This document shows, piece after piece, positions 7,601-61,490 of a stretch of 64,000 nt of DNA (its first letter is position 1; the number at the start of each line of letters is the position of its first letter). The DNA is taken from the NCBI GenBank assembly GCA_964508045.1, contig CAZDSO010000001.1, forward strand, positions 746 to 64,745, written 5' to 3'. The translations under genes and the position numbers were made by a program. The stretch is from an uncultured Planctomycetia bacterium. GTDB lineage: Bacteria; Planctomycetota; JAKEIC01; CAZDSO01. Under the pieces are notes generated by a model. That model was not told where the DNA came from, did no database searches, and saw only the letters and a list, made by a program, of their open reading frames with translations.

Positions 7601-7656
7601 ACTTCCACCGTCTGATGAAGAAATACGGCCTCAAGGCGGCCGATTTCAAGCAGTGA
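1663..7656 (+). CDS. Ser/Thr protein kinase / STAND (AAA_16-like) ATPase / TPR / GAF / sigma-54 enhancer-binding AAA+ / Fis-type HTH fusion protein
   Basis: 1,997-aa uninterrupted ORF. Kinase motifs: GTGGMASVY, HLDIKPENILV, DFGLV, YVAPE. P-loop ITGEAGAGKT with LLDDLD. Long helical-repeat middle. GAF-like block (LRSILEVCKEF...GFLLID). Sigma-54 core: [33 protein letters not shown]-terminal HTH NVTRASEEADLQRGYFHRLMKKYGL. Confidence 0.9.
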   Translation: MPRPEDRLVGMILNGRYRVQERLGTGGMASVYRVHDELEDRAACLKVLFEGGDDSVERELLVQEFRTLKGLKHPNLEEVYDFGRLEGEDAHFFSNELVDGADLGAASKDLDFGALTECLVQICRALQYIHSRGLVHLDIKPENILVRRGPEGDPQVKIIDFGLVSKRDNPLGEEIRGTLAYVAPEILRGEASDHRADLYSLGVTLYRLLSGGEHPFSAKSDVESVLQRFSRQVDAPVSPLGDIPPYLVRVTLRLLEASPENRYPDANAIIEDIRRATRKPYPLETEESREGRVLSGRFVGREQEMETVTTLLDEAAGRGARKHVLITGEAGAGKTRFLREIAVRAQVAGQRVFRGTAPKRGAGAYAHLAGVLTELVLTLGREHPRVREHGPPLARILPARLGLGDPPPPLEGRAESIRIADAASRLVLGFARGKPTVVLLDDLDRADPGTADALAYLVRSTPASGDGAPSLLVVATIRETGRKEGPASRLFGATETKAEWTEVPLGPLDETAVQDLLESMFGAGEVPDTFLERIFAASRGNPLFLEEAVRLLAARGDLRWTGRRWAFPARPESVSIPENLEEIFDQSLRDVEEEDRGILEAMAVWGRPAGVRALQATLGGRSLASAAASLARLHGRDLAERMDEASGARWRVRGSLFEAYLYGRIPADEKKRLHGRAGAFLEEQGAEGAHALAEVSRHLLAGGRGAQGVERALEAGRRFLDVAQFDRGITVLKLAEEETGEADAATLSALHSLAGKCRMYSGDMPGALEAFRKADRHLERQGAKARKERLEILIHIGDILRVLGREEEGFRFLERSEAIAAETGDPLDAARIRLHKGNRLCVTGRVAEGFRILEEAIGDHEALLELNEGAVASLHLANREARRGDLAKAETWLAVSERYARRRGSKHGLVIAERYRGYWAMEAGRLEEARKHLEAALALVREIGHRKEEGFTLEPLVNVNLELGRYEEAERLVQEGMATFQALGDEAAVTRLYQNQSDFCLLRGEFDEAIAVQHSVLRFWQEKGHPLWIPVSELNTGQVHVATGRPAEALLHLRQALTRFRDLGQSSYMLHTRRVLGEHYLARGKWRAALRITERCLESGGPEGSIPGEGVVRSLRAMALAHLGRVKEAEEEGERASRRLAKDGNVHIGLEEAFHKALRARERGHFTSAAAGLAPVLETARERGRRSLELRALAVLGEVRVREGSLAKALLCLNRATALNQGVKGRLEGVEIRLARAGLFERLGDDAEARAAAREAIALAESLRNPALAGRARLAAGRLDRLAKRENARSHLEGALASLRRAGDHRGLCEVRLELARLLPAGEARRQRDETERLLENTGTPDLEARLALQRAESRARESGPAPGIEALLEKALTAARASGDRDLVRRAHHALACLQAGRAESGRPAPHATEARSIEEEMASDLPEARLDAFRKTNAGIRRDIERIFRPEAGAPRESAPPATTAEASPREVHTLRSILEVCKEFNAETNFPDLLTRILDDAISLFGARRGFLLIDTGKALEPLVSRNFREEDEADLRISRTLARRVFETGRGVHTGNVLEEEAFLDSHSVHALKLQSVLCAPLRSAGEAVGALYLDQPALEEAFREKDLDLLGALADLAGIAIENARLLEGLQERERELEERNLDLTEEVQTRILEVEEVRRTLHDRERELKGRDLYKEIVGESEAVRRLFSLLDRVSASALPVVLQGETGTGKELAARAVHQGSVRRARPFVSVNCAALPENLLESELFGYRKGAFTGATKDSLGLFVHADGGSLFLDEIGDMSPSLQAKLLRVLQEGEVRPLGEKTSVPVDVRILCATNRDLAERVEAGAFREDLFYRLNVLRVELPSLRERREDIPLLASHFLKEVLKKEKRKERDLILSQSALKALKRHHWPGNVRELKNTIERAAVFASSDRITAEEIELVFHREPGEEKAEETDAPGDYREAKTAFEKAYIERMLRRHEGNVTRASEEADLQRGYFHRLMKKYGLKAADFKQ

Positions 7657-7866
7657 ACACAAAGATGTTCTCCCGAGGATCGGCGGAAATCCTTTTGATA
7701 ATTGAAGATAACACCTTCATCCCTCCTTCCCTCTTTTCTTGTAGCTGAAAAGCTCCATTTCCTCCCTTCTCCGGCGATCGTCGTTCCCGGGATCCACAGC
7801 GGAAAGAAATTCTTAACTTCAATCAAATAAATGGGTTGGGTTCTTTCGACGGGAAAACCGACGCTG

Positions 7867-7883
7867 TTGGCATGAATGGTGCT
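7867..7883 (+). promoter_or_regulatory. candidate sigma-54 (-24/-12) promoter
   Basis: TTGGCATGAATGGTGCT has GG(7869-70)-N10-GC(7881-82) spacing, matching TGGCAC-N5-TTGCW at most positions. It lies about 40 nt upstream of the ATG at 7923, with GGAGG at 7911-7915, and follows an AT-rich tract. Confidence 0.5.
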
Positions 7884-7922
7884 CCTTCATGAGCCGTCAC
7901 GAGCTTTGATGGAGGATCAACC

Positions 7923-9896
7923 ATGAACTCGAAACACGTTTGGATCGGCTCTCTCCTGGCCCTGTTCCTGTTCTTCACGGTCTCCTGCAAGAAGGAGGGG
8001 GTCGAGTTGACCTCCGTGACGGTCACGGGGGAGACGGAGGCGCTGGCGAAGGGGAAATCCCAGATCCTGGAAGCGGAAGGGACCTACAGCGACGGGACCA
8101 CGGCGACGATCGAGGTGAAGTGGAGCGTGTCGGATCCCTCGCTGGGCGAAATCCTCGCCGTTTCGGGGTCGCCGGAGAAGGCCGTTCTGCAAACGCTTGA
8201 GGAGGGGGAGTTGACGGTCCGGGCGGAAGCGAAGGAGGAGCCGGCGGTGAGCGCGTATTTCACCGTGACGGTGTTCGAGCCGGTGATGGAATCCATCGTG
8301 GTGTCGCCGGGATCTGCGAGCGTTCCCGAGGGCCTGACCGCGGCGTTTTCCGTGGAGGCCGAATACAGCGACGGGACGACGGCCCCGGTCTCCGTGGAAT
8401 GGTCCTCGAGCGACGAGGGGATCGCGACGGTGGACGGGACGGGCACCGTGACGACCGTTTCCCTGGGCGAGGCGACGATCACGGCGACGACCCTGGAAGA
8501 GCCGATCTTCTCGGACGCGGCGACGGTGACGGTGCTCGAGGCCGTTCCGGTGGGGCTTGCGGTCTCGCCCGCTTCCGCGTCGCTCGAGGAGGGCTGCACG
8601 CTGTCCTTCACGGCGTCGGTGAAGTACTCGGACGGATCCACGGGGGATCCGATCGAGGCGACGTGGACGAGCGCCGACGGGAACGTGGCGGTGATCGACG
8701 CCTCGGGCACGGCCACGGGCGTGGCGGCGGGCGTGGTGACCCTCACGGCCACGGCCGTCTCCGACGCGAGCCTTACGGGCGAGGCGGATCTGACGGTGGT
8801 GCCGGGTGTGGTGTCCATCTCGGTGACGCCGGGGACGGCGTCGGTGGTGCCGGGGAACACGCAGTCCTTCACGGCCACGGGGACGTACTCGGACCAGTCC
8901 ACGGCGCCCGTGGCGGTGACGTGGTCGAGCTCGAACACGACGGTGGCGACGATCGACGCCTCCGGCGTGGCGACGGGTCACACGAAGGGGACGGCGACGA
9001 TCACGGCGGCCTACCAGGCGAATCCGGGCGTGACGGGCTCCGCGACGCTGACGGTGGCCCCGTTCACCCGCATGTACATGAACAACAATCCCGACATCGA
9101 TTCGGTTCCCTTCACCGGCGGGTCCGGCCGGAACGACTACGTGGCTTCGACGCGCGTCCGCAGCATCCTGGTGAGCCGGGACAAGCAGACGCTCTACATG
9201 CTGGACGGGAACGGGGCGCTGTACGGCCTGGATCTCACCACGTATCAGCTGCAGACCCTGATCGCTTCGAGCTCGCCCCTGCTCCGCCAGGCCCTGAGCA
9301 TCGACGCGCAGGGGAACCTCTTCGCGGCGGGCTACAGCTACGTCAACAGCACGAACATGTACTCCGTCGAGAAGATCGACCCTTCCACCTGGACGGTCTC
9401 CACCTTCAGCCCCCTGGGGAACTCGACCTGCTATCACGACACCCTTCCCATGAACGGCGACGTCTACGTCGCGACCTGGGGCGGGATCGCAAGGGCGTCC
9501 TCGGGCGCGGCACCCACGAACGTCTTCACGAGCGGCATGAACGTGTTCACCAGCATCGCGGCCGACGCCAACGGGGACCTGTACACCGTCGAGTTCTGGA
9601 ACAAGGACGTGTGGAAACTCACGGACCTGAACAGCGACGGCAACTATTACGGCATGGGCGAATCCGGCGTATTCAAGAACTACGGAATGCAGTGGATCTG
9701 CGAGGTGGAGATGGACGCCGAGGACAGCCTCTACGTGGCCGAGCTGCAACAGGACGCCTCGAATCCCTCCCACGGCATCTGGAAGCTCCGGGATCTGAAC
9801 AACGACGGAGACGCCGTGGACGCCGGCGAGGGCTCGATCTGGTGCACGCGACCCTACCTCTCGGGCTGGGGCGGCGGCGGCATGAGCTTCAAGTAG
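7923..9896 (+). CDS. lipoprotein with four Big_2 (bacterial Ig-like) repeats and a C-terminal NHL/beta-propeller-like domain
   Basis: Lipobox signal MNSKHVWIGSLLALFLFFTVSC. Four ~85-aa repeats of the form V.P..A.v..G.t..ftA...YSDGtt..v...W.SS. The C-terminal half has repeated D.(Q/N)G(N/D)L(F/Y) blade-like motifs. Confidence 0.85.
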   Translation: MNSKHVWIGSLLALFLFFTVSCKKEGVELTSVTVTGETEALAKGKSQILEAEGTYSDGTTATIEVKWSVSDPSLGEILAVSGSPEKAVLQTLEEGELTVRAEAKEEPAVSAYFTVTVFEPVMESIVVSPGSASVPEGLTAAFSVEAEYSDGTTAPVSVEWSSSDEGIATVDGTGTVTTVSLGEATITATTLEEPIFSDAATVTVLEAVPVGLAVSPASASLEEGCTLSFTASVKYSDGSTGDPIEATWTSADGNVAVIDASGTATGVAAGVVTLTATAVSDASLTGEADLTVVPGVVSISVTPGTASVVPGNTQSFTATGTYSDQSTAPVAVTWSSSNTTVATIDASGVATGHTKGTATITAAYQANPGVTGSATLTVAPFTRMYMNNNPDIDSVPFTGGSGRNDYVASTRVRSILVSRDKQTLYMLDGNGALYGLDLTTYQLQTLIASSSPLLRQALSIDAQGNLFAAGYSYVNSTNMYSVEKIDPSTWTVSTFSPLGNSTCYHDTLPMNGDVYVATWGGIARASSGAAPTNVFTSGMNVFTSIAADANGDLYTVEFWNKDVWKLTDLNSDGNYYGMGESGVFKNYGMQWICEVEMDAEDSLYVAELQQDASNPSHGIWKLRDLNNDGDAVDAGEGSIWCTRPYLSGWGGGGMSFK

Positions 9897-9906
9897 GAGA
9901 GACGCC

Positions 9907-11064
9907 ATGAAGACCCTCTGCATCATCCTGATCCTCCTCGCGACCGGTCTTCTGGCTTCCGTCATCCTCCCGGTCCCCCTCGGGGACCGGGAGGAGACGG
10001 TTTCCGTACCGGCCTCGATGACAACCGACCCGGGCGACGCCGCGGAACCGTTCGGACGGGATCCCGGCGCCGCCGGGGCCCGCGCGGCCGCGGAGGAAAC
10101 TCTCGGTGCCGCGCCTCGGCGAGGGGAAGGCACCCGCGCTTCCGGTACGGCGCGCGCTCGCCTCCCGGAGCCGAGCGCCGGCGAGAAGGCCCCGGACGCG
10201 GTCCCCGGCCTTCTCGAAGACCTGGAAGCCGCCTTCGTGGCGGGACAATCCGCCGAGATGAAGGCCCTCCACGCCCGCATCCGGGCCCTGGGCGAGAAGG
10301 CCCTCGGTGACCTCGCTTCCTGCATCCGCTCCGCGAAGGACGCGACGACCGTCCTGCTGGCCATGGACGCCCTGGCGGGTCTTCGCGCGGCGCATCCCGG
10401 CTCGTCCGCGATCGAGGCCGCCTACGAGACCGCCGTCTTTCCGCGCGCGAAGGCGATCCTCGAATCCGTCGAGGATCCCGCGCTGCGCGCCCACGCCGCC
10501 TTTCACCTCGCCGCGTGCCGCCTCCCCGCGGGGGTGGACGTCCTTCTGGAGCGCGTGCGCCAGGACCGCGAGGAGCGGGTCCGGGCCGCCTGTCTGGACG
10601 CCCTGGTCCGCGAGAAGGAGCGCGGGGCCACGCCCGCGTTGGTGAACATGCTGGAGCTGGGCCTGCCGCACGAGGAGAGGTCCCGGCTCGGCATCGCCCG
10701 GGCGTCTCTGGCTCTGCTGGACGAATCGTCCCGCGCCCGGGGTCGCCGGCGCATCCACGCCGCGATGAAGGACGATCTGGAAGCGATCCTGCAGGACCCC
10801 GCGCCGCAGAACGCCGCGAGACGCTACGCCGCCTTCCACCTCCTTCTGCAGACGGCGCCCGGGGGCGACGCCCGGACGCTTGTCGAGGCGGTGCGGCGCG
10901 AGACGACCCCCGTCGTGTTCGCCGGCGTGGTCGATACGCTGGTGGACCGGAAGGAGACGGAGGATCTCGCGCCGGTGCTCGAAGAGATCGCCTGCGATGT
11001 CTCCCGGCCCGAGGGCGTGAAGCGGCTCGCGCGCGGGGCGCTTTCGAGGATCCGGGGCCGTTGA
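9907..11064 (+). CDS. secreted/anchored HEAT-like repeat protein
   Basis: N-terminal hydrophobic segment MKTLCIILILLATGLLASVIL. Repeated helical units contain D...(V/L)R..A...L. The gene starts 10 nt after the upstream gene. Confidence 0.7.
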   Translation: MKTLCIILILLATGLLASVILPVPLGDREETVSVPASMTTDPGDAAEPFGRDPGAAGARAAAEETLGAAPRRGEGTRASGTARARLPEPSAGEKAPDAVPGLLEDLEAAFVAGQSAEMKALHARIRALGEKALGDLASCIRSAKDATTVLLAMDALAGLRAAHPGSSAIEAAYETAVFPRAKAILESVEDPALRAHAAFHLAACRLPAGVDVLLERVRQDREERVRAACLDALVREKERGATPALVNMLELGLPHEERSRLGIARASLALLDESSRARGRRRIHAAMKDDLEAILQDPAPQNAARRYAAFHLLLQTAPGGDARTLVEAVRRETTPVVFAGVVDTLVDRKETEDLAPVLEEIACDVSRPEGVKRLARGALSRIRGR

Positions 11065-54911: not shown

Positions 54912-55697
54912 ATGCTCAAGATCGGCATCATCGGCGGCTCGGGGCTGGACGACCCGAAGATGCTCGAGGCATGCCGGGAGATCGAGGTCGAGACCGACTT
55001 CGGGCGCCCCGAGAGCCCGTTGACCCTGGGCAGGATCGAGGGGAGGGACGTCGTCATCCTGGCCCGCCACGGCCGGAAGCACGCCGTCATGCCCGGCCGC
55101 GTGAATTACCGCGCCAACGTCCGCGCCCTCAAGGACCAGGGATGCTCCCACGTCCTCGCCACCACCGCCTGCGGATCGCTTCGGGAAGCCATCGAACCCG
55201 GGCACCTCGTCTTCCCCGACCAGTTCGTGGACCGCACCACGAAGCGGGAATCCACCTTCTACGACAAGGACCGCGTGTGCCACATCGCCATGGAGGAGCC
55301 GTTCTGCCCCCGCCTGCGGACCCTCCTGGCCGAGGAAGCGGAGAACCTGGGCTTCGCCCATCACGCGAAGGCGACGCTGGTGACCATCGAGGGGCCGCGC
55401 TTCTCCACGCGGGCCGAATCCCGCCTCTTCCGCGCCTGGGGGCTGGACATCATCAACATGAGCACGATCCCCGAGGCCACCCTCGCCCGGGAGGCGGGGA
55501 TGTGCTACCAGCCCATCGCCATGAGCACGGACTACGACTGCTTCATGGAGTCGGAGGAGAACGTCACCTGGGAGCAGATCGCCAGGATCATGAGCGCCAA
55601 CGTGGCCCGCGTGAAGTCTCTGCTCGCGGCGTCCATCCCGCGGATCGATTTCGAGGATTGCCCGTGCCGCACCGCCATCGATCAAGCCCTCGTCTGA
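54912..55697 (+). CDS. mtnP: S-methyl-5'-thioadenosine phosphorylase / purine nucleoside phosphorylase (MTAP family)
   Basis: IGIIGGSGL, LARHGRKH, ATTACGSL, INMSTIPEATLAREAG. 261 aa. Confidence 0.88.
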   Translation: MLKIGIIGGSGLDDPKMLEACREIEVETDFGRPESPLTLGRIEGRDVVILARHGRKHAVMPGRVNYRANVRALKDQGCSHVLATTACGSLREAIEPGHLVFPDQFVDRTTKRESTFYDKDRVCHIAMEEPFCPRLRTLLAEEAENLGFAHHAKATLVTIEGPRFSTRAESRLFRAWGLDIINMSTIPEATLAREAGMCYQPIAMSTDYDCFMESEENVTWEQIARIMSANVARVKSLLAASIPRIDFEDCPCRTAIDQALV

Positions 55698-56551
55698 CGC
55701 CGGCCCTCGCCTGTCTCGCGGCCTGTCTTCTCTCCGCCCTCGCGGCCGGTCCCGTCTTCGCCTCCAACGAGGGCGACGAGGACGAGAAGAAGGAATCGCC
55801 CCTGTCCTCGCTGAAGGTCGGCGAGATCCTGCGCTTCGTGGACATCCAGCTCGGGGACGACTGGACGGATTTCTGCGTCGAGAAGGTCCGGGGGACCTCC
55901 GAGCCCGCCAGCCGCACGGAAGCGAACAAGATCGACTACTACGCCCGCCACGCCACCACCTCCCTGGCCGTGAGGATCGAGGCGGGCACGCTTCTCGGCG
56001 GGCACTTCCGCGCCGGCCTCCTCCGCGCCTCCCTCCACGACCGCTTCCATTCCTCGAGCGACGTGATCGTCGGTGCGCCGGACGGCGAGATCCGGGAATC
56101 CGTGCGATGCGAGCTGGGCGCAGCGTTCGGCCTGGGCGCCGAGATCCGCATGCCCGTCCGAGACAAGGCACGCCTCGGACTCTCCTACGAGATCGGCTAC
56201 GGCGTCGCCAAGGTGGAGAACGAGCGGTTCTTTCTCACCCCCATCGAAGGGGAATACCGCTACTTCTCGCACGAGTTCCTCCTCTTCGCCGACCTGCCCA
56301 TCCGCCTGGAAAAGCCTTTCCGCGGGATCCTCAGGCCCCGACTCTCGCTCGGCGCCCTCGTCGTCCGCGGCGCCGCGGATTTCACCTCCCCCGGCAAGGA
56401 CTACGACTGGGACCTCCACTGGAGAGAGGACCAGAGCTTCCTGCTCCGCTTCACCTTGAAACTCGAAACCGAAGAGGGGCTCTTCGCTTCCCTCTCGGGA
56501 GACGTCATCGCCAGGCTGGGCGTCCGTCTCGGCGTGGGCGTGCGCTTCTGA
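55664..56551 (+). CDS. putative outer-membrane beta-barrel protein
   Basis: The frame has no early ATG. The GTG at 55664 gives a basic n-region plus LTPALACLAACLLSALAAGPVFA. The C-terminus ...RLGVRLGVGVRF ends in Phe, as OMP beta-signals do. The start is uncertain and would overlap the mtnP 3' end by 34 nt. Confidence 0.5.
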   Translation: MPHRHRSSPRLTPALACLAACLLSALAAGPVFASNEGDEDEKKESPLSSLKVGEILRFVDIQLGDDWTDFCVEKVRGTSEPASRTEANKIDYYARHATTSLAVRIEAGTLLGGHFRAGLLRASLHDRFHSSSDVIVGAPDGEIRESVRCELGAAFGLGAEIRMPVRDKARLGLSYEIGYGVAKVENERFFLTPIEGEYRYFSHEFLLFADLPIRLEKPFRGILRPRLSLGALVVRGAADFTSPGKDYDWDLHWREDQSFLLRFTLKLETEEGLFASLSGDVIARLGVRLGVGVRF

Positions 56552-56609
56552 CAGCCCCGCCGGGACGGTCGGAAATCGGAAGTCCCACGTCGTCATGAAG
56601 AGGATGTTT

Positions 56610-56652
56610 GACTTGGCCTCTGGCCTTTGGACTTGGGACAGTGGACTTGGGC
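56610..56652. repeat. three direct copies of GGACTTGG within 43 nt, just upstream of yjbQ
   Basis: tttGACTTGGcctctggccttTGGACTTGGgacagtGGACTTGGgcc read directly. It lies between the OMP stop (56551) and the yjbQ ATG (56673). Confidence 0.5.
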
Positions 56653-56672
56653 CCTCGAACTTCGGTGTACGC

Positions 56673-57098
56673 ATGCGCTTTCACGATACCGAGATCCCGC
56701 TGGAAACGACGCGCCGGTTCCAGATCCTCGACATCACCGGAACCGTGCAGGACGCGGTGAAAGCCTCCGGCATCGCCCGGGGCCTGGCCCTGGTCCGCTC
56801 GCCCCACACCACCGCCTCGATCCGCGTCAACGAGAACGAACCGAGGCTCCACGAGGACATGGAACGGTTCCTCTGCGATCTCGCCCATCCCGAAGGCGCC
56901 TGGCGCCACAACCTCCAGACCGTCGACGACCGCCCCAACGCCTGGGGGCACTTGATGAGCCTCCTGCTCGGCGGCGCGGCCGTCCTCCCCGTCACGGAGG
57001 GCCGGATCGATCTCGGAGGCTGGCAGTCCGTCTTCTTCGTCGAGCTGGACGGGCCGCGGGCCGCGCGCAAGGCGTTCGTGAGGGTGATGGGGGCGTGA
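56673..57098 (+). CDS. YjbQ/UPF0047 family protein (secondary thiamine-phosphate synthase-like)
   Basis: The ATG at 56673 gives MRFHDTEIPLET...ALVRSPHTTASIRVNENEPRLHEDM...GWQSVFFVELDGPR. These are signature UPF0047 blocks. Confidence 0.82.
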   Translation: MRFHDTEIPLETTRRFQILDITGTVQDAVKASGIARGLALVRSPHTTASIRVNENEPRLHEDMERFLCDLAHPEGAWRHNLQTVDDRPNAWGHLMSLLLGGAAVLPVTEGRIDLGGWQSVFFVELDGPRAARKAFVRVMGA

Positions 57099-57117
57099 GC
57101 GCCGCAGGGAGGAAGGA

Positions 57118-58422
57118 ATGAACGCGTCCGATAGAGCCGGTTTCCTGGCCGATGAATCCGCGCTGGATCCCGAAGACTTCGTCTTCGAGACCTACGTGTT
57201 CGAGACGGCCGGAGACGCCGAGGAGACGGCCGTCCATCTCTGCGCGGAGCACAGCACGGCGCTGTGGAGCCGCCCGGGCGTGGACGAGGACTATCGCCCC
57301 CGCCACGCGGCGAAGCTGGTCCGCCTCGAGGTGCTCGAAAAGGGCGTCCCGCCCGTTCTGGATCTCCCCTACCACCGGGGCGAGGTCTTCACGCGCGTGC
57401 GGGCGCGGATCGCGCATCCCCACCGGAACTTCGGGCCGCGTATTCCGAACCTCCTCACGGCCGTCTGCGGGGAGGGGGCCTTCTTCGCGCCGGGCGCCTC
57501 CATGATCAAGCTCATGGACCTCGAGTTTCCCTCCTCCTTCCTCGACCGCTTCCCCGGTCCGGCGTTCGGGGTGGAGGGGTTGCGCGCCCTTCTGCAAGCA
57601 TGGGACCGGCCGATCTTCCTGGGCGTCGTGAAGCCCAACGTGGGACTCGAGCCGGACGCCTTCGCCCGCCTCGCCTACGCCTCCTGGCTGGGGGGGCTCG
57701 ACGCCCCCAAGGACGACGAGATGCTGGCCGACGCCGAGGATTCCCCCTTCGAGAGGCGGGCCGCACGGCTCGGGTCGTTGCGCAAGCGGGCCGAGGACGA
57801 GACCGGGCGCCCGTTGATGTTCATCGGGAACATCACCGACGAGGTGGAGCGCATGGCTTCGCTGCTCGACGTCGCCGTCGCGAGCGGGGTCAACGCCGTC
57901 ATGATCAACGGGGTCGCCACGGGACTCCCGGCCGTGCGCTTCGTGCGCGAGCGCTCGAGCGTCCCGATGGTGGGGCACTTCGACCTGATCGCGCCTTCCT
58001 CGCGTCTTCCCTTCTTCGGGGTCCACAGCGTGGTCTGGACGAAGCTGCAGCGCCTGGCGGGATTCGACGCGATCATCATGCCGGGCTTCGGCGACCGGAT
58101 GTACACGCCGCCCCCGGAGGTCCTGGCCAACGTCCGGGCCTGTCTCGATCCGATGGGGAATCTTCGCCGGAGCCTGCCGGTGCCCGGGGGCAGCGACTGG
58201 GCCGGGACGCTCGGCGCCGTGCACGAGAGGCTCGGGACCGTCGACTTCGGATTCGTTCCGGGGCGGGGGGTCTTCGGCCATCCGGGCGGCCCGGAGGAGG
58301 GCGCGAGGAGCATCGTGGACGCGTGGGAAGCGATCCGGGAGGGCAAGACGCTCGAAGAGAAGGCCACGGAATCGGAACCGGTGCGCAGGGCGATCGAGGC
58401 GTTTCATCCTCCCTCGCATTGA
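57118..58422 (+). CDS. RuBisCO large-subunit-like protein (form IV / RLP-type active-site pattern)
   Basis: RPIFLGVVKPNVGLEPDAFARLAYASWLGGLDAPKDDE aligns with the RuBisCO block RPLLGCTIKPKLGLS...GGLDFTKDDE. K175, K201, D203 and E204 equivalents are kept and K177 is Asn. The HRAMHA block is replaced by GHFDLIA, and the loop-6 Lys region is not conserved. Confidence 0.85.
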   Translation: MNASDRAGFLADESALDPEDFVFETYVFETAGDAEETAVHLCAEHSTALWSRPGVDEDYRPRHAAKLVRLEVLEKGVPPVLDLPYHRGEVFTRVRARIAHPHRNFGPRIPNLLTAVCGEGAFFAPGASMIKLMDLEFPSSFLDRFPGPAFGVEGLRALLQAWDRPIFLGVVKPNVGLEPDAFARLAYASWLGGLDAPKDDEMLADAEDSPFERRAARLGSLRKRAEDETGRPLMFIGNITDEVERMASLLDVAVASGVNAVMINGVATGLPAVRFVRERSSVPMVGHFDLIAPSSRLPFFGVHSVVWTKLQRLAGFDAIIMPGFGDRMYTPPPEVLANVRACLDPMGNLRRSLPVPGGSDWAGTLGAVHERLGTVDFGFVPGRGVFGHPGGPEEGARSIVDAWEAIREGKTLEEKATESEPVRRAIEAFHPPSH

Positions 58423-58459
58423 CTTCGTGTGGTTGTTCCGGTGCTGCTGGAGCGAAGCG

Positions 58460-58777
58460 ATGGAGACGTTCCTGGAGATCCTGCAGTGGACCGCGCTGGT
58501 CTTCGCCGGCGGCGTGATCGCCGGCTTCGGAAAGCTCCTCGCCTCCTGGATCGTGAAGAACCGTCGGAAATCCCTCGCGATCACGAAAAAGCAGGGTGAG
58601 GGCGGGGAGACCGCGCCGGCGACCGGCGGCGGCGAGGGGCCCGTCGCCGATGACGGGGAGCGGGCGAAGCGGGACAAGAAGGCGGAGAAGGACCGGAAAA
58701 AGCGCGAGAAGAAGGCGGACAAGGAGAGGCGCAAGAAGGAGAAGAAGGAAACGGACAAGGGTCCCCCGGACGGCTAG
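58460..58777 (+). CDS. small single-pass membrane protein with Lys/Glu-rich tail
   Basis: METFLEILQWTALVFAGGVIAGFGKLLASWIV followed by KRDKKAEKDRKKREKKADKERRKKEKKETDK. The start was assigned to the internal Met. Confidence 0.5.
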   Translation: METFLEILQWTALVFAGGVIAGFGKLLASWIVKNRRKSLAITKKQGEGGETAPATGGGEGPVADDGERAKRDKKAEKDRKKREKKADKERRKKEKKETDKGPPDG

Positions 58778-60231
58778 CCCAGGGAGAAGCGCAGCATATA
58801 GGCGAGGTTGTCGGGCGACGCGAGGACGGATAGCGCCGGTTCCATCCCCGTGGAGTCCCACCCGAGGATCGGGAAGCCGTCGAGGCTCGGGTCGTCCTCG
58901 GGGAGGGCGAAGCGATCGGGCTGGGCGTTCATTTGCTCCTTCATGCGCCTGTACACGGCGAAATCCGCTTCGGACACGTCCCCCAGGTCCCGCTGGCCGC
59001 CTTCCGCCCGGCGCGCCACCGTCTCCTCGTCGGCGGAGCAGGAGATGAAGAGGAGGGGCGCGCCCGTCTTCCTCGACACCTCGACCAGATCCCGGCGCCC
59101 CTCGATCAGGAGCGAGGTGGCGTCCAGGACGACCGAGCGGCCCTTCTGCAGGTTCGTCTCCGCCTCGAGGCGGAGACGGCGGTAGACCTCCGCGGAGACC
59201 TCCTCGGCGTACCGCGTCTTTGGATCGGTGGTCTCGGGGGGGAAGGCCGAAAGCCGCACCGCGTCGGAGGAGAGCACCTCCGCGTCCAGGAAACCGGCGA
59301 GCCGGCGGGCCAGCGTGGACTTGCCCGTCCGGGGAAGGCCGCAGAGGACGACGAGGAAGGCCCTTCTCGCGGTGTAGGCCTTTTTCAGGTTCCGGAGGGG
59401 CCCGTAGGAAAGCGTGCCCGCCTCGCCCACGTGGCCCAGGTTTCCGTAGGATTGCTCGCCGTGGAAATCGCTTCCACCGGTGACGAGGAGGCCGTGCTTC
59501 TCGGCCAGATCCCGGTAGTAGCGGGTGTCGTCGGGACCGAGGGAGCGGTAGTAGACCTCCAGCCCCATCAGGCCCCAGTCCACCATCTCTTCCAACACGG
59601 CGGGGTCCATGCGTTCGCCGGGCGTGATCAGATTGGGATGGGCGAGCACGGGGATGCCTCCGGCCCCCTTGACGGCCTCCACGGCCTCGCGGAAGAAAGG
59701 CTTGAACTTGGGGATGTTGTAGGGGATGAGATAGCGCTTGAAGGCGCCCGCCATGTTCTTGGCGTAGCCCCGCTCCAGAAGGACCTTCGCGATGTGGGGG
59801 CGTCCGATCAGGCCGGACGCGTGTCGTTCCACCTCGTCGAACCCCAGCGGGGCGCGCCCTTGTGAGGCGAGGACATCGTTGATCCTGTCCACCAGCTTGC
59901 GGCCCCGCTCGACCCGCGCCTCGCGGATTTCCGAAAGCGTGCGCCCCAGGCGTTCCGCCTCCCAGTCCAAATAGTAGCCGAGCAGGTGCACCTGGGAAAA
60001 GCCCCGGCACTGGACGCTCAGTTCCACGCCGGGAACCACTTCCACGTTTTCCCGGTCCCCGGTTTCCAGCCCCTCGACCACGCCGTCCACGGTATCGTGG
60101 TCGGTGACGGCGATGGCAACGAGCCCCATGGCCGCGGCCTTGCGAACCACGTCGGCGGGAGTGTAGTCCCCGTCCGATCGCGTCGTGTGGACATGCAGGT
60201 CGATGGCGCCCTCAACCGATTCACCACACAC
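58774..60231 (-). CDS. PHP-domain phosphoesterase fused to a P-loop (AAA_33 / polynucleotide-kinase-like) kinase domain
   Basis: N-terminus IDLHVHTTRSDGDYTPADVV...IAVTDHDT is the PHP metal site. C-terminus VVLCGLPRTGKSTLARRLA (Walker A) and VVLDATSLL (Walker B-like). Confidence 0.85.
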   Translation of the reverse strand: MCGESVEGAIDLHVHTTRSDGDYTPADVVRKAAAMGLVAIAVTDHDTVDGVVEGLETGDRENVEVVPGVELSVQCRGFSQVHLLGYYLDWEAERLGRTLSEIREARVERGRKLVDRINDVLASQGRAPLGFDEVERHASGLIGRPHIAKVLLERGYAKNMAGAFKRYLIPYNIPKFKPFFREAVEAVKGAGGIPVLAHPNLITPGERMDPAVLEEMVDWGLMGLEVYYRSLGPDDTRYYRDLAEKHGLLVTGGSDFHGEQSYGNLGHVGEAGTLSYGPLRNLKKAYTARRAFLVVLCGLPRTGKSTLARRLAGFLDAEVLSSDAVRLSAFPPETTDPKTRYAEEVSAEVYRRLRLEAETNLQKGRSVVLDATSLLIEGRRDLVEVSRKTGAPLLFISCSADEETVARRAEGGQRDLGDVSEADFAVYRRMKEQMNAQPDRFALPEDDPSLDGFPILGWDSTGMEPALSVLASPDNLAYMLRFSLG

Positions 60232-60296
60232 CGTTTTCCCTCCCGCAAGGTTTCATCCAGTCCCGGCCCCGAAAGCGCGGCGGCCCGCCCCCTTCG

Positions 60297-61490
60297 TCAC
60301 GGCAAGGCCTCCAGGAAACTCGAGCCGCTTTCCGTGACGACGTCGAAGTTCTCCGCGATCGTCGCCCCCAGGTCCGCCATGTTCCGGTCTCCGAGCCGCG
60401 TTTCCCCGCGGACCCCCGGCCGCCAGACCAGCAGCGGGACGTATTCCCTCGTGTGGTCGGTACCGGGATGCCGCGGATCGTTTCCGTGGTCGGCCGTGAT
60501 CGCGAGCAGGTCTCCTTCCTTCAGCGCCCTCTCGAGGCGCGGCAGGGCCTCGTCGAAGGCCTCCAGGGCTTTGAGGAACCCTTCGGCGTCGCGCCGGTGC
60601 CCGTAGAGCATGTCGAAATCGATGAGGTTCGCCATGCAGAGCCCGGTGAAGTCGTCTGCCGCTTCCCGCACCAGCGCTTCCGTGCTCGAGGCGTTGTCCG
60701 GCGTGTGCTCGGAAGCGGTCAGACCCCGGAAGGCGAAGATGTCCTCGATCTTCCCGATGCCGCGGACCTCGAGATCCGCCGCAACGAGGCGGTCGAGAAG
60801 CGTGTCCGCCGGCGGGGCCAGCGAGAAGTCCTTTCGCCGCGCCGTCCGGCGGTACGCTCCCGTCCTCCCCTCGAAGGGGCGGGCGATGACGCGGCTCACC
60901 GCGTGGGGCCCCGCGAGAAGGGCGCGGGCCGTCTCGCACATGCGATAGAGATCCTCCACGGGCACGACGTCCTCGTGGCAGGCGACCTGGAAGACGGAAT
61001 CGGCCGAGGTGTAGACGATGGGGCGGCCGGTGCGCACGTGCTCCGCGCCGAGTCGCGCGATGATCTCGGTGCCGCTGGCCGGGCGGTTCCAGAGCGCCTT
61101 CCGGCCGACGGCCTTCTCGAAGGGTTCCATGACCTCGGCCGGGAAGCCCTCGGGGTAGACCGGAAAGGGGCGGTCCAGGGTGAGGCCGGCCAGTTCCCAG
61201 TGGCCGGTCGTGGTGTCCTTTCCCGGGGAGCGCTCGACGAGCCGCCCCCACGCCCCGTCGACGTCCACGGGGGGGCCGGGCGGGGACAGAAGCGCGGAAA
61301 GCCCCCGGGAAGCGAGATGGGGAACCTCGAGGCCCCGCTCGGGGAGGGCGTGGCCCAGCGTGTCGCTGCCTTCATCCCCGAAGTCGCGCGCGTCCGGAAG
61401 CGCGCCGGCGCCCACGCCGTCCAGAACGATCAGAAACACCCGTCGGAAGTTCACACGATTCACCCTGTTCGACGAAAATGAACCCGACAT
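60297..61490 (-). CDS. deoB: phosphopentomutase
   Basis: VFLIVLDGVGAGALPDARDFGDEGSDTLGHA and ITADHGNDPRHPGTDHTREYVPLL match the DeoB metal/phosphoserine blocks. The start was put at MSGSFSS (61490). The upstream ATG at 61559 is an alternative. Confidence 0.88.
   Translation of the reverse strand: MSGSFSSNRVNRVNFRRVFLIVLDGVGAGALPDARDFGDEGSDTLGHALPERGLEVPHLASRGLSALLSPPGPPVDVDGAWGRLVERSPGKDTTTGHWELAGLTLDRPFPVYPEGFPAEVMEPFEKAVGRKALWNRPASGTEIIARLGAEHVRTGRPIVYTSADSVFQVACHEDVVPVEDLYRMCETARALLAGPHAVSRVIARPFEGRTGAYRRTARRKDFSLAPPADTLLDRLVAADLEVRGIGKIEDIFAFRGLTASEHTPDNASSTEALVREAADDFTGLCMANLIDFDMLYGHRRDAEGFLKALEAFDEALPRLERALKEGDLLAITADHGNDPRHPGTDHTREYVPLLVWRPGVRGETRLGDRNMADLGATIAENFDVVTESGSSFLEALP

What the first reader, a model, noticed from the sequence alone, without database searches (positions are those of the whole stretch)
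54912..61490. Gene neighbourhood linking the RLP to nucleoside/pentose-phosphate metabolism and YjbQ
Within 6.6 kb the following genes lie together:
- an MTAP-family nucleoside phosphorylase, which makes (5-methylthio)ribose-1-P or ribose-1-P;
- a predicted OMP;
- a YjbQ/UPF0047 protein, only 19 nt upstream of the RLP and so probably co-transcribed;
- the RLP;
- a small membrane protein;
- convergent with these, a PHP phosphoesterase-P-loop kinase fusion and phosphopentomutase DeoB.
Known RLP and form III contexts involve MTA salvage (MtnP/MtnA/MtnK) or the pentose-bisphosphate pathway (nucleoside phosphorylase, ribose-1-P kinase, R15P isomerase). Here the isomerase and dehydratase partners (mtnA, mtnB, an e2b2-type isomerase) are absent from the window. 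An uncharacterised kinase-phosphatase fusion and YjbQ are present instead. That combination could represent a variant pentose-phosphate or MTA salvage route.
Basis: inference. Interest (0 to 1): 0.6.

Follow-up and report, generated by a model that had tools for sequence, protein, structure and literature searches.

The report
YjbQ–RuBisCO-like pair beside MTA phosphorylase
The stretch holds two unrelated gene blocks that merely abut; the real unit is a tightly coupled YjbQ + "Photo-type" RuBisCO-like gene pair, conserved across several phyla and repeatedly placed beside isoprenoid-precursor genes or (as here) MTA phosphorylase, which gives a testable clue to two proteins whose functions are not known.

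Summary
The 6.6 kb is not one pathway cluster.

Block 1 (+ strand) is MTAP – OMP-like ORF – YjbQ – RLP. This order recurs in the two nearest Planctomycetota relatives.

Block 2 (– strand) is DeoB → PHP-kinase. It belongs to a separate syntenic block with SPase I and DUF3754. In a relative it lies on a different contig from block 1.

The RLP is a form IV "Photo"-type protein (E about 1e-153 to the Chlorobium RLP). It keeps the Mg/enolisation core but lacks carboxylase residues.

Across 118 RLP loci, a distinct YjbQ subfamily sits directly upstream in 51 of 53 informative loci of two RLP clades (median gap 3 nt). Chlorobi keep the same YjbQ subfamily unlinked, next to dxs.

The pair recurs in xseA–xseB–ispA–[YjbQ–RLP] (the dxs slot), upstream of xseB–ispA–dxs, before idi inside purple-bacterial photosynthesis clusters, or after MTAP.

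The window's genome has MtnA and PdxJ but no Dxs, Dxr or ThiG.

[quoted passage not shown] This is untested biochemically.

The parts
54912..55697 (+). mtnP: S-methyl-5'-thioadenosine phosphorylase (MTAP family)
   Evidence: TIGR01694 scores 303.2 bits against a cut-off of 274.85; PF01048 also matches. It holds the same position in L144, L146 and L011.
55664..56551 (+). ORFx: secreted OMP-like beta-barrel protein with no family
   Evidence: No Pfam or NCBIfam hit. It has a signal peptide and a C-terminal ...GVRF. It is 42-49% identical to the ORF at the same position in L144 and L146. The AF2 model is all beta-hairpins, and Foldseek hits are all outer-membrane barrels.
56552..56672 (+). 121-nt intergenic region with three GGACTTGG repeats; probable own promoter or operator of yjbQ-rlp
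   Evidence: Read directly from the sequence. No Rfam family matches and no terminator was predicted.
56673..57098 (+). yjbQ: RLP-linked subfamily of UPF0047
   Evidence: PF01894 scores 115 bits and TIGR00149 112 bits. It falls in the clade of RLP-adjacent YjbQs, which is separate from the other paralogues (support 91/91). The family-invariant residues D62, H79, N89, H93, E124, D126 and R132 are retained.
57118..58422 (+). rlp: form IV 'Photo'-type RuBisCO-like protein (non-carboxylating)
   Evidence: E = 9e-153 to 1TEL and 4e-144 to 2QYG. It is the only RuBisCO-family gene in the genome. The active-site pattern was read. It sits in clade B of the RLP tree.
58427..58777 (+). Small ORF (116 aa) with one hydrophobic segment and a K/E-rich tail; not a conserved part of the module
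   Evidence: No family at E <= 0.001, only sub-threshold low-complexity hits. It is absent from the relatives' loci.
58774..60231 (-). TrpH/YciV-type PHP phosphoesterase fused to an AAA_33/KTI12/Pnkp-like P-loop kinase; belongs to the separate DeoB block
   Evidence: Domain matches. Only about 10 homologues share this architecture, all from Planctomycetota-type MAGs. In three relatives it lies directly downstream of DeoB, without an RLP.
60297..61490 (-). deoB: phosphopentomutase
   Evidence: NF003766 scores 475.7 bits against a cut-off of 256, and TIGR01696 scores 425 bits. The DeoB -> PHP-kinase pairing is conserved in L149, L150 and L151.

Best explanation
Two independent gene blocks meet tail-to-tail in this stretch.

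Block 1 (+ strand) is mtnP - OMP-like ORF - yjbQ - rlp.
- Its core is an ancient, translationally coupled two-gene module: a specialised YjbQ/UPF0047 subfamily plus a non-carboxylating 'Photo'-type RuBisCO-like protein.
- The RLP keeps the Mg2+-carbamate and general-base core, so it can enolise or isomerise a keto-sugar phosphate. This is inferred from the conserved residues.
- The module is repeatedly embedded next to isoprenoid-precursor genes, or next to MTA/5'-deoxyadenosine phosphorylase.
- The most likely job (inferred, not shown) is a salvage shunt. MTAP makes 5-deoxy- or 5-methylthio-ribose-1-P. MtnA, encoded elsewhere in the genome, makes the ribulose-1-P. The RLP moves the carbonyl to give a 1-deoxy- or 1-methylthio-pentulose-5-P. 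[quoted passage not shown] The product would be DXP or a close relative.
- In this mevalonate-type organism the only detected DXP consumer is PdxJ, for vitamin B6 synthesis.

Block 2 (- strand) is deoB -> PHP-kinase. It is a separate nucleoside/nucleotide-salvage pair and is not a partner of the RLP.
For: Shown here:
- The RLP is Photo-type. It retains the equivalents of K175, K201, D203, E204 and H294. It carries K177N, R295F, H327I, K334R, S379G and G404R, all invariant across its clade.
- YjbQ lies directly upstream of the RLP in 51 of 53 informative loci of RLP clades A (non-Chlorobi) and B, spanning five or more phyla. The median gap is 3 nt.
- The RLP-adjacent YjbQs, together with one unlinked Chlorobi paralogue, form a single clade separate from the other UPF0047 paralogues of the same genomes.
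- An isoprenoid link was predicted from the first loci, then tested on 80 new loci. In the pooled 118 loci, ispA lies upstream in 12 and idi downstream in 8.
- The layout xseA-xseB-ispA-YjbQ-RLP puts the pair in the dxs slot.
- L004 has YjbQ-RLP-xseB-ispA-dxs.
- The Chlorobi YjbQ lies directly upstream of dxs in 3 of 3 genomes.
- In Thiocystis the pair sits inside the photosynthesis gene cluster, after the puf genes and before idi.
- MTAP lies upstream of the pair in the window, L144, L146 and L011.
- The window's genome has MtnA and PdxJ. It has no Dxs, no Dxr and no ThiG, and it has HMG-CoA reductase.
- In one order of six MAGs, Dxr is present in 6 of 6, Dxs in 0 of 6, and the RLP in 3 of 6.
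- DeoB -> PHP-kinase forms a separate block.

From the literature:
- RLP2 slowly converts MTRu-1P to MTXu-5P in vitro (PMC5893883, citing earlier work).
- 181 genomes lack only Dxs, and 95% of those have no known bypass (PMC10663253).
Against: - There is no biochemical evidence for any substrate.
- R. palustris strains lacking rlp2 show no MTA phenotype (PMC5893883).
- Most YjbQ-RLP genomes also have Dxs, so the module is not generally a Dxs replacement.
- In the Dxs-less order, 3 of 6 MAGs lack the RLP, so absence of Dxs does not track the RLP there.
- The window's genome is only 91% complete, so its missing dxs could be an assembly gap.
- That genome also has a class II aldolase next to an AOR-like gene. 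This could be a DHAP-shunt Ald2 that consumes the MtnA product.
- ispA and idi act on IPP and DMAPP, not on sugar phosphates, so the adjacency may reflect co-regulation.
- The role of YjbQ is pure inference.
- No fusion proteins and no riboswitch were found.
Confidence: 0.5

Rival explanations
1. The whole 6.6 kb is one variant pentose-phosphate or MTA-salvage pathway. The PHP-kinase fusion would supply a kinase and phosphatase step, and DeoB would interconvert ribose-1-P and ribose-5-P for the RLP.
For: All the genes deal with nucleoside or pentose-phosphate chemistry and lie within 6.6 kb. The DeoB -> PHP-kinase pairing is itself conserved.
Against: PHP-kinase and DeoB lie beside no other RLP (0 of 35 genome loci and 0 of 80 metagenome loci). 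In the nearest relatives the genes downstream of the RLP are different. In GCA_054872445.1 the two blocks are on different contigs. The two blocks are convergent, so they are not co-transcribed.
Confidence: 0.06
2. YjbQ-RLP acts on some other keto-phosphate unrelated to SAM by-products or DXP, for example in sulfur or oxidative-stress metabolism as suggested by the C. tepidum mutant. Its position near ispA, idi, dxs and MTAP would then reflect co-regulation or genome history only.
For: The C. tepidum RLP mutant has pleiotropic sulfur and stress phenotypes, and the R. palustris rlp2 deletion shows no MTA phenotype (PMC5893883). 27 of the 51 YjbQ-RLP loci show none of these four neighbours within 3.5 kb. 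Gemmatimonadota loci have a convergent MoeB/ThiF-rhodanese gene.
Against: Four or five independent lineages place the pair, or its YjbQ, next to isoprenoid-precursor genes, including exactly the dxs slot. The prediction held on new loci. MTAP linkage occurs in two unrelated lineages.
Confidence: 0.27
3. The module is catabolic or detoxifying. It converts 5-deoxy- or methylthio-pentulose-1-P into a form that is cleaved or otherwise disposed of, as in Chlorobi where the RLP is flanked by an LsrF-like thiolase and SDRs that could yield DHAP + acetyl-CoA. DXP is not the product.
For: The Chlorobi RLP is preceded by an LsrF-type 3-hydroxy-5-phosphonooxypentane-2,4-dione thiolase (NF006081, 511 bits) and flanked by SDRs. 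The substrate of that thiolase is the 4-oxidised form of a 1-deoxy-pentulose-5-P (chemistry reasoned by me). The window's organism makes isoprenoids through mevalonate.
Against: Clade B loci and the window have no thiolase or SDR partner. The dxs-slot position and the idi and ispA neighbours argue for a biosynthetic link. PdxJ without Dxs in this genome fits a DXP supply.
Confidence: 0.15

Closest known systems
Form IV 'Photo' RuBisCO-like proteins (Chlorobaculum tepidum RLP, PDB 1TEL/1YKW; R. palustris RLP2, PDB 2QYG)
   Same: About 55-60% identity over the full length (E 1e-153 and 4e-144). The active-site substitution pattern is the same. In purple sulfur bacteria and Gemmatimonadota the gene is likewise preceded by YjbQ.
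   Different: The host is an uncultured Planctomycetota genome, and 80 relatives in the phylum lack the gene. The protein sits in a separate, non-phototroph subclade (clade B). The local partners here are MTAP and an OMP-like ORF rather than puf/idi or LsrF/SDR. The function of the whole family is not known.
MTA-isoprenoid shunt of Rhodospirillum rubrum (MtnP, MtnA, DeepYkrW RLP 1,3-isomerase, cupin MTXu-5P methylsulfurylase -> DXP)
   Same: It uses an RLP plus one small partner enzyme. MtnP and MtnA are present in the genome. There is a genomic tie to DXP and isoprenoid genes. The Photo RLP2 shows a trace of the same isomerase activity in vitro (PMC5893883).
   Different: The RLP belongs to a different clade. 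The partner is YjbQ, not a cupin. RLP2 is dispensable for MTA use in R. palustris. No activity has been shown for this module.
DHAP shunt for MTA and 5'-deoxyadenosine (MtnP or MtnN+MtnK, MtnA, class II aldolase Ald2)
   Same: It shares the MtnP and MtnA entry steps. The genome has one class II aldolase next to an AOR-like gene that could play the Ald2 role.
   Different: The DHAP shunt needs no RLP or YjbQ. The aldolase lies on another contig, and its assignment is uncertain (NF006413 scores 201 bits against a cut-off of 203).
xseB-ispA-dxs operon (E. coli type)
   Same: In clade B relatives the order is xseA-xseB-ispA-[YjbQ-RLP], or YjbQ-RLP-xseB-ispA-dxs.
   Different: In the window itself no xseB, ispA or dxs gene is nearby, and the genome has no dxs at all.
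Bacterial polynucleotide kinase-phosphatase (Pnkp) and TrpH/YciV (RNase AM, pAp phosphatase), as comparators for the PHP-kinase fusion
   Same: It combines a P-loop kinase of the Pnkp/KTI12/AAA_33 type with a phosphoesterase.
   Different: The phosphoesterase is of the PHP type rather than calcineurin-like. All scores are far below the equivalog cut-offs. The gene is paired with DeoB.

Membership tests
Form IV-Photo RuBisCO-like protein | Much closer in sequence to the C. tepidum and R. palustris RLP2 proteins than to any other RuBisCO or RLP clade | tested here: met
   512 and 484 bits to 1TEL and 2QYG, against 166 bits or less to any other structure.
Form IV-Photo RuBisCO-like protein | Keeps K175, carbamylated K201, D203, E204 and H294, but replaces K177, R295, H327, K334, S379 and G404 | tested here: met
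   The retained residues are K172, K198, D200, E201 and H287. The replacements are N174, F288, I320, R327, G357 and R383. Positions were mapped through the 1GEH alignment, and the residues are invariant or nearly so in 20 clade members.
Form IV-Photo RuBisCO-like protein | Occurs in anoxygenic phototrophs (the feature that named the clade) | tested here: inconclusive
Clade B members come from MAGs labelled Planctomycetota, 'Deltaproteobacteria'/Myxococcota and a DPANN-labelled MAG. The window's genome was not searched for photosynthesis genes.
Bona fide RuBisCO (forms I-III), i.e. the pentose-bisphosphate pathway | Complete carboxylase active site, and a partner ribose-1,5-bisphosphate isomerase (e2b2) | tested here: not met
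   Six catalytic or phosphate-binding residues are replaced. TIGR03326 scores 195 bits against a cut-off of 497. The only IF-2B-family gene is MtnA: TIGR00512 scores 425 against 279, while e2b2 scores 191 against 314.
MtnW/YkrW DK-MTP-1-P enolase (canonical methionine salvage) | Equivalog-level match, with MtnB dehydratase present in the genome | tested here: not met
   TIGR03332 scores 146 bits against a cut-off of 514. The only class II aldolase-family gene scores 49.6 against 137 for MtnB.
MTA-isoprenoid shunt (R. rubrum type) | DeepYkrW-clade RLP with an adjacent cupin MTXu-5P methylsulfurylase | tested here: not met
   The RLP is Photo-type. The adjacent gene is YjbQ, not a cupin. The genome was not searched for the cupin.
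MTA-isoprenoid shunt (R. rubrum type) | The entry enzymes MtnP and MtnA are present | tested here: met
   MTAP is in the window. MtnA is on contig C125.
UPF0047 / YjbQ | Pfam and TIGRFAM match above cut-off, with the family-invariant polar residues present | tested here: met
   PF01894 scores 115 bits against 27, and TIGR00149 scores 112 against 68. D62, H79, N89, H93, E124, D126 and R132 are present. E = 2e-32 to PDB 2P6H.
MTAP (MtnP) | Equivalog score | tested here: met
   TIGR01694 scores 303.2 bits against a cut-off of 274.85. Specificity for MTA versus 5'-deoxyadenosine cannot be tested with these tools.
Phosphopentomutase DeoB | Equivalog score | tested here: met
   NF003766 scores 475.7 bits against 256, and TIGR01696 scores 425 against 341.

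The most novel reading that the evidence does not exclude
YjbQ plus the Photo-type RLP form a previously unrecognised, Dxs-independent route to 1-deoxy-D-xylulose-5-phosphate. The starting material would be the radical-SAM by-product 5'-deoxyadenosine, and possibly MTA. The steps would be MtnP -> MtnA -> RLP carbonyl migration, with YjbQ as the accompanying enzyme. If true, this would assign functions to the Photo RLPs and to a UPF0047 subfamily. It would also explain some genomes that have DXP consumers but no Dxs: this one has PdxJ only, and an order of six MAGs has Dxr, ThiG and PdxJ.
Probability: 0.3. Interest if true: 0.9.

Novelty: new variant of a known kind. Interest (0 to 1): 0.72.

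Why it matters
- The Photo-type RLPs have had crystal structures and mutant phenotypes since the early 2000s (dates recalled from my own knowledge), but I found no assigned reaction.
- UPF0047/YjbQ has nine solved structures, all deposited as hypothetical proteins, and no established function.
- A 2023 survey found 181 complete genomes that lack only Dxs, and 95% of them have no known bypass (PMC10663253).
- The conserved YjbQ-RLP pairing and its placement in the dxs slot turn all three puzzles into one concrete experiment that can be run with a handful of purified enzymes.
- I found no paper in the searchable library that mentions YjbQ or UPF0047 together with RLPs.
- Even if the DXP idea is wrong, the result redefines the unit to study. 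It is YjbQ + RLP, not the RLP alone, and it excludes the kinase fusion and DeoB.

Tried and rejected
- **Dxs replacement.** I tested whether YjbQ-RLP replaces Dxs in the Myxococcota-like order. All 6 MAGs lack Dxs and have Dxr, but only 3 carry the RLP. Their 633-aa Dxs-like ORF is a transketolase (NF004559, 921 bits). The test is therefore neither supportive nor refuting.
- **Fusion proteins.** I looked for Rosetta-stone fusions of the RLP and found none among the top 120 close homologues or the top 150 library representatives. The N-terminal extension of P0323 is low-complexity sequence from a mis-called start, not a YjbQ domain.
- **Riboswitches.** None were found upstream of the pair in the window or in 13 loci, only tmRNA genes in two loci.
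- **DXP consumers.** ThiG is absent from the window's genome. PdxJ is present.
- **Canonical methionine salvage.** MtnA is not in an mtn operon, and there is no MtnB-grade hit.
- **Pentose-bisphosphate pathway.** Rejected.
- **Papers not held.** The Tabita 2007 review and Erb 2012 are not in the library, so I cannot exclude that the YjbQ neighbour was noted there.
- **Genome searches.** MtnD and MtnK in the window's genome, dxs in the same-order relatives G001-G003, and MtnA/MtnP in the other YjbQ-RLP genomes were therefore not tested.


Full report
**1. Observation**

| Gene | Coordinates | Key evidence |
|---|---|---|
| MTAP | 54912-55697 (+) | TIGR01694 303 bits, cut-off 275 |
| ORFx (no family) | 55664-56551 (+) | see below |
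| YjbQ/UPF0047 | 56673-57098 (+) | PF01894, TIGR00149 |
| RuBisCO-like protein | 57118-58422 (+) | PF00016 |
| 116-aa ORF | 58427-58777 (+) | no family |
| PHP + AAA_33 kinase fusion | 58774-60231 (-) | PF02811, PF13671 |
| DeoB | 60297-61490 (-) | NF003766 476 bits |

- The YjbQ stop and the RLP ATG are 19 nt apart, and a GGAGG sequence precedes the RLP start.
- The best start for ORFx is the GTG at 55664. It overlaps the MTAP end by 34 nt and yields a textbook signal peptide.
- The AlphaFold2 model of ORFx has modest confidence (pLDDT 60, pTM 0.56). It consists of long beta-hairpins, and Foldseek matches only outer-membrane barrels. This supports the 'predicted OMP' label at fold-class level.
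- The YjbQ orthologues are 141-150 aa. The window's gene therefore most likely starts at the ATG at 56673.
- That start leaves a 121-nt gap holding three GGACTTGG repeats.
- No intrinsic terminator is predicted inside the + strand block.

**2. What the RLP is**

- It is the only RuBisCO-family gene in the genome.
- It matches the Chlorobium tepidum RLP (1TEL/1YKW, E about 1e-153) and the R. palustris RLP2 (2QYG, 4e-144). Every other structure scores 166 bits or less. It is therefore a form IV 'Photo'-type RLP.
- I mapped the active site through the T. kodakarensis RuBisCO alignment and a 20-member clade alignment.
- Retained: the general base K175 (K172), the carbamylated lysine K201 (K198), the metal ligands D203 and E204 (D200, E201), and H294 (H287).
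- Replaced: K177→N, R295→F, H327→I, K334→R, S379→G, G404→R. All are invariant or nearly so in the clade.
- This pattern fits an Mg2+-dependent enoliser or isomeriser, not a carboxylase.
- Miller et al. [quoted passage not shown] They also cite earlier in vitro work in which RLP2 slowly converted 5-methylthioribulose-1-P to 1-methylthioxylulose-5-P.

**3. Neighbourhood conservation**

I collected four sets of loci:
- 35 genome loci
- 80 metagenome loci
- three loci from the nearest homologues
- the window itself

tblastn with the window's neighbour proteins and de novo clustering gave a clear result.

- PHP-kinase, DeoB and MtnA lie beside none of the 35 genome loci or 80 metagenome loci. Neither PHP-kinase nor DeoB appears in L144 or L146.
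- YjbQ lies directly upstream of the RLP in 51 loci.
- The median distance from the YjbQ stop to the RLP start is 3 nt. It is 19 nt or less in 42 of 51 loci, and many show ATGA-type overlaps.

The RLP tree has three groups:

| Clade | Members | Context |
|---|---|---|
| A | Purple sulfur bacteria, Gemmatimonadota, Chlorobi | YjbQ adjacent, except in Chlorobi |
| B (support 98) | Window, two close Planctomycetota relatives, two other Planctomycetota, a Myxococcota-labelled lineage, a DPANN-labelled MAG | YjbQ in all 18 informative loci |
| C | Mostly unlabelled metagenome contigs, plus one Spirochaetota and one deltaproteobacterial MAG | No YjbQ; sugar-catabolic clusters |

- Clade C loci carry UPF0261, PEP-hydrolase-like, class II aldolase, RpiB, Zn-ADH and metallo-beta-lactamase genes.
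- Every genome tested has 1-3 UPF0047 paralogues.
- In a YjbQ tree, the RLP-adjacent copies plus one Chlorobi paralogue form a single clade. It is separate from the other paralogues (support 91/91; 93% of bootstrap trees).
- Chlorobi therefore keep the RLP-type YjbQ even though it is unlinked. In Chlorobaculum thiosulfatiphilum it lies about 98 kb from the RLP.

**4. What else travels with the pair**

The first annotations suggested an isoprenoid theme. I recorded it as a prediction before fetching new loci.

- In the 80 new loci, ispA-YjbQ-RLP recurred 9 times and YjbQ-RLP-idi 7 times. The partner proteins are only 53-74% identical to the originals, so these are diverged lineages.
- Pooled counts across all 118 loci are 12 with ispA, 8 with idi and 4 with MTAP.
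- The ispA-type loci read xseA-xseB-ispA-YjbQ-RLP, so the pair occupies the dxs position of the classical operon.
- The Planctomycetota locus L004 reads YjbQ-RLP-xseB-ispA-dxs.
- In three Chlorobi genomes the RLP-type YjbQ is immediately upstream of dxs.
- The Chlorobi RLP itself is preceded by an LsrF-type thiolase (NF006081, 511 bits) and flanked by SDRs.
- In Thiocystis violascens and five related contigs, YjbQ-RLP-idi-lipA lies inside the photosynthesis gene cluster, right after the puf and LH genes.
- From my own knowledge, Rhodobacter carries dxsA and idi at comparable places in its photosynthesis gene cluster.
- From my own knowledge, the C. tepidum RLP mutant has reduced pigment content.
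- MTAP is the upstream partner in the window, in both nearest relatives (RLP 66-67% identical; ORFx 42-49% identical) and in L011.

**5. The other half of the stretch**

- The PHP-kinase architecture is rare. About 10 homologues share it, and the one with a named source organism is a Planctomycetota MAG. Other relatives are stand-alone TrpH/YciV-type PHP proteins.
- In three relatives the layout is DUF3754 - SPase I - DeoB -> PHP-kinase. It mirrors the window exactly and is followed by unrelated genes.
- In assembly GCA_054872445.1 this block is on contig JBTYFD010000087, while MTAP-ORFx-YjbQ-RLP is on JBTYFD010000400.
- The two blocks are therefore independent. Their contact in the window is a local accident.
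- DeoB -> PHP-kinase may be a nucleoside or nucleotide-salvage pair in its own right.

**6. Genome-wide context**

| Gene | Status in the window's genome |
|---|---|
| MtnA | Present on contig C125 (TIGR00512 425 bits) |
| Dxs | Absent |
| Dxr | Absent |
| ThiG | Absent |
| HMG-CoA reductase | Present |
| PdxJ | Present |
| Class II aldolase | One gene, on contig C80 |

- MtnA is not in an mtn operon. It follows a translationally coupled 160-aa ORF with no family.
- The class II aldolase is not MtnB-grade. Its best match is NF006413 'aldolase'. It sits after an aldehyde:ferredoxin-oxidoreductase-like gene, so it could be a DHAP-shunt aldolase.
- The organism appears to make isoprenoids through mevalonate. 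It still has a DXP-consuming PLP pathway without a recognisable DXP source.
- None of 80 Planctomycetota relatives has this RLP, so it was acquired sporadically.
- In the order containing the ispA-YjbQ-RLP MAGs, Dxr is present in 6 of 6 and Dxs in 0 of 6.
- The Dxs-like ORF of that order is a transketolase. ThiG is present in the three MAGs tested and PdxJ in the two tested.
- The RLP is present in 3 of those 6 MAGs.
- This is suggestive but not decisive, because the MAGs are small and incomplete.
- Most other YjbQ-RLP genomes also have Dxs.

**7. Mechanism**

Shown here:
- The RLP keeps the enolisation machinery.
- YjbQ and the RLP are a coupled pair.
- The pair is embedded beside DXP or isoprenoid-precursor genes, or beside MTAP.

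Inferred:
- By analogy with the DeepYkrW RLP, the RLP migrates the carbonyl of a 5-substituted ribulose-1-P to give a 1-substituted pentulose-5-P.
- With 5-deoxyribulose-1-P, derived from the radical-SAM by-product 5'-deoxyadenosine, the product would be DXP or its epimer directly.
- YjbQ would supply the step the cupin supplies in R. rubrum, or an epimerisation or clean-up step.
- The LsrF-type thiolase in Chlorobi acts on a 1-deoxy-diketopentose-5-P. This independently points to the same substrate family.

I put about 0.5 on the general statement and about 0.3 on the specific DXP route.

That is concordant, but it is not independent evidence.

**8. Limits**

- There is no biochemistry behind any of this.
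- Transcript data were unavailable.
- No fusions or riboswitches were found.
- The window's genome is 91% complete.
- Two key papers were not available.

Noticed in passing
G092, G093, G097-G100 (the order containing L002 and L005): All six MAGs of this order have Dxr. None has a Dxs above cut-off, and their 620-640-aa Dxs-like ORF is a transketolase. ThiG is present in the three tested and PdxJ in the two tested. The lineage needs an unidentified DXP source.
   Followed up: partly
window 58774-61490 (-); L149, L150, L151: DeoB followed by the rare PHP (TrpH/YciV-type) + P-loop kinase fusion is a conserved co-directional pair, overlapping by 4 nt in L150. It sits within a DUF3754 - SPase I - DeoB - PHP-kinase block in Planctomycetota MAGs. 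It may be a nucleoside or RNA-end salvage unit in its own right.
   Followed up: partly
L152 7522-8004 (the same organism's MtnA locus; genome contig C125): A 160-aa ORF with no Pfam family overlaps the MtnA start by 4 nt in three assemblies. It is a possible unknown partner of MtnA.
   Followed up: partly
L155 3674-6449 (genome contig C80, about 7173-9948): The genome's only class II aldolase-family gene lies immediately downstream of an aldehyde:ferredoxin-oxidoreductase-like gene. Its best match is NF006413 (201 bits, cut-off 203), and it is not MtnB. This layout would suit a DHAP-shunt aldolase whose aldehyde product is then oxidised.
   Followed up: partly
L008-L017, L108, L111 and other Chlorobi loci, just upstream and downstream of the RLP at about 6001-7275: The Chlorobi RLP is preceded by an LsrF-type 3-hydroxy-5-phosphonooxypentane-2,4-dione thiolase homologue (NF006081, 511 bits) and flanked by short-chain dehydrogenases.
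   Followed up: partly
L020, L067, L084, L101, L104, L106, L119, L123, L126, L130, L134, L137, L138 (RLP clade C): A third RLP subclade never has YjbQ. It sits instead in clusters with UPF0261, PEP-hydrolase-like, class II aldolase, RpiB, Zn-ADH and metallo-beta-lactamase genes, so it probably has a different, sugar-catabolic function.
   Followed up: partly
L011 / G091 (MAG labelled Candidatus Aenigmatarchaeota, about 1.0 Mb): This DPANN-labelled MAG carries an archaeal-type ABCE1/RLI gene next to MTAP-YjbQ-RLP. It also has adjacent bacterial-type dxs and dxr on another contig. This is either lateral transfer or a binning artefact.
   Followed up: no
window 56610-56652: Three GGACTTGG repeats lie in the 121-nt gap upstream of the likely yjbQ start. 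They may be an operator. No Rfam family matches there.
   Followed up: partly
L146 4260-5453: In one close relative the RLP is followed on the same strand by PDH-type E1 alpha (TIGR03182, 364 bits, cut-off 394) and E1 beta genes. These are TPP enzymes of the superfamily to which Dxs belongs.
   Followed up: no
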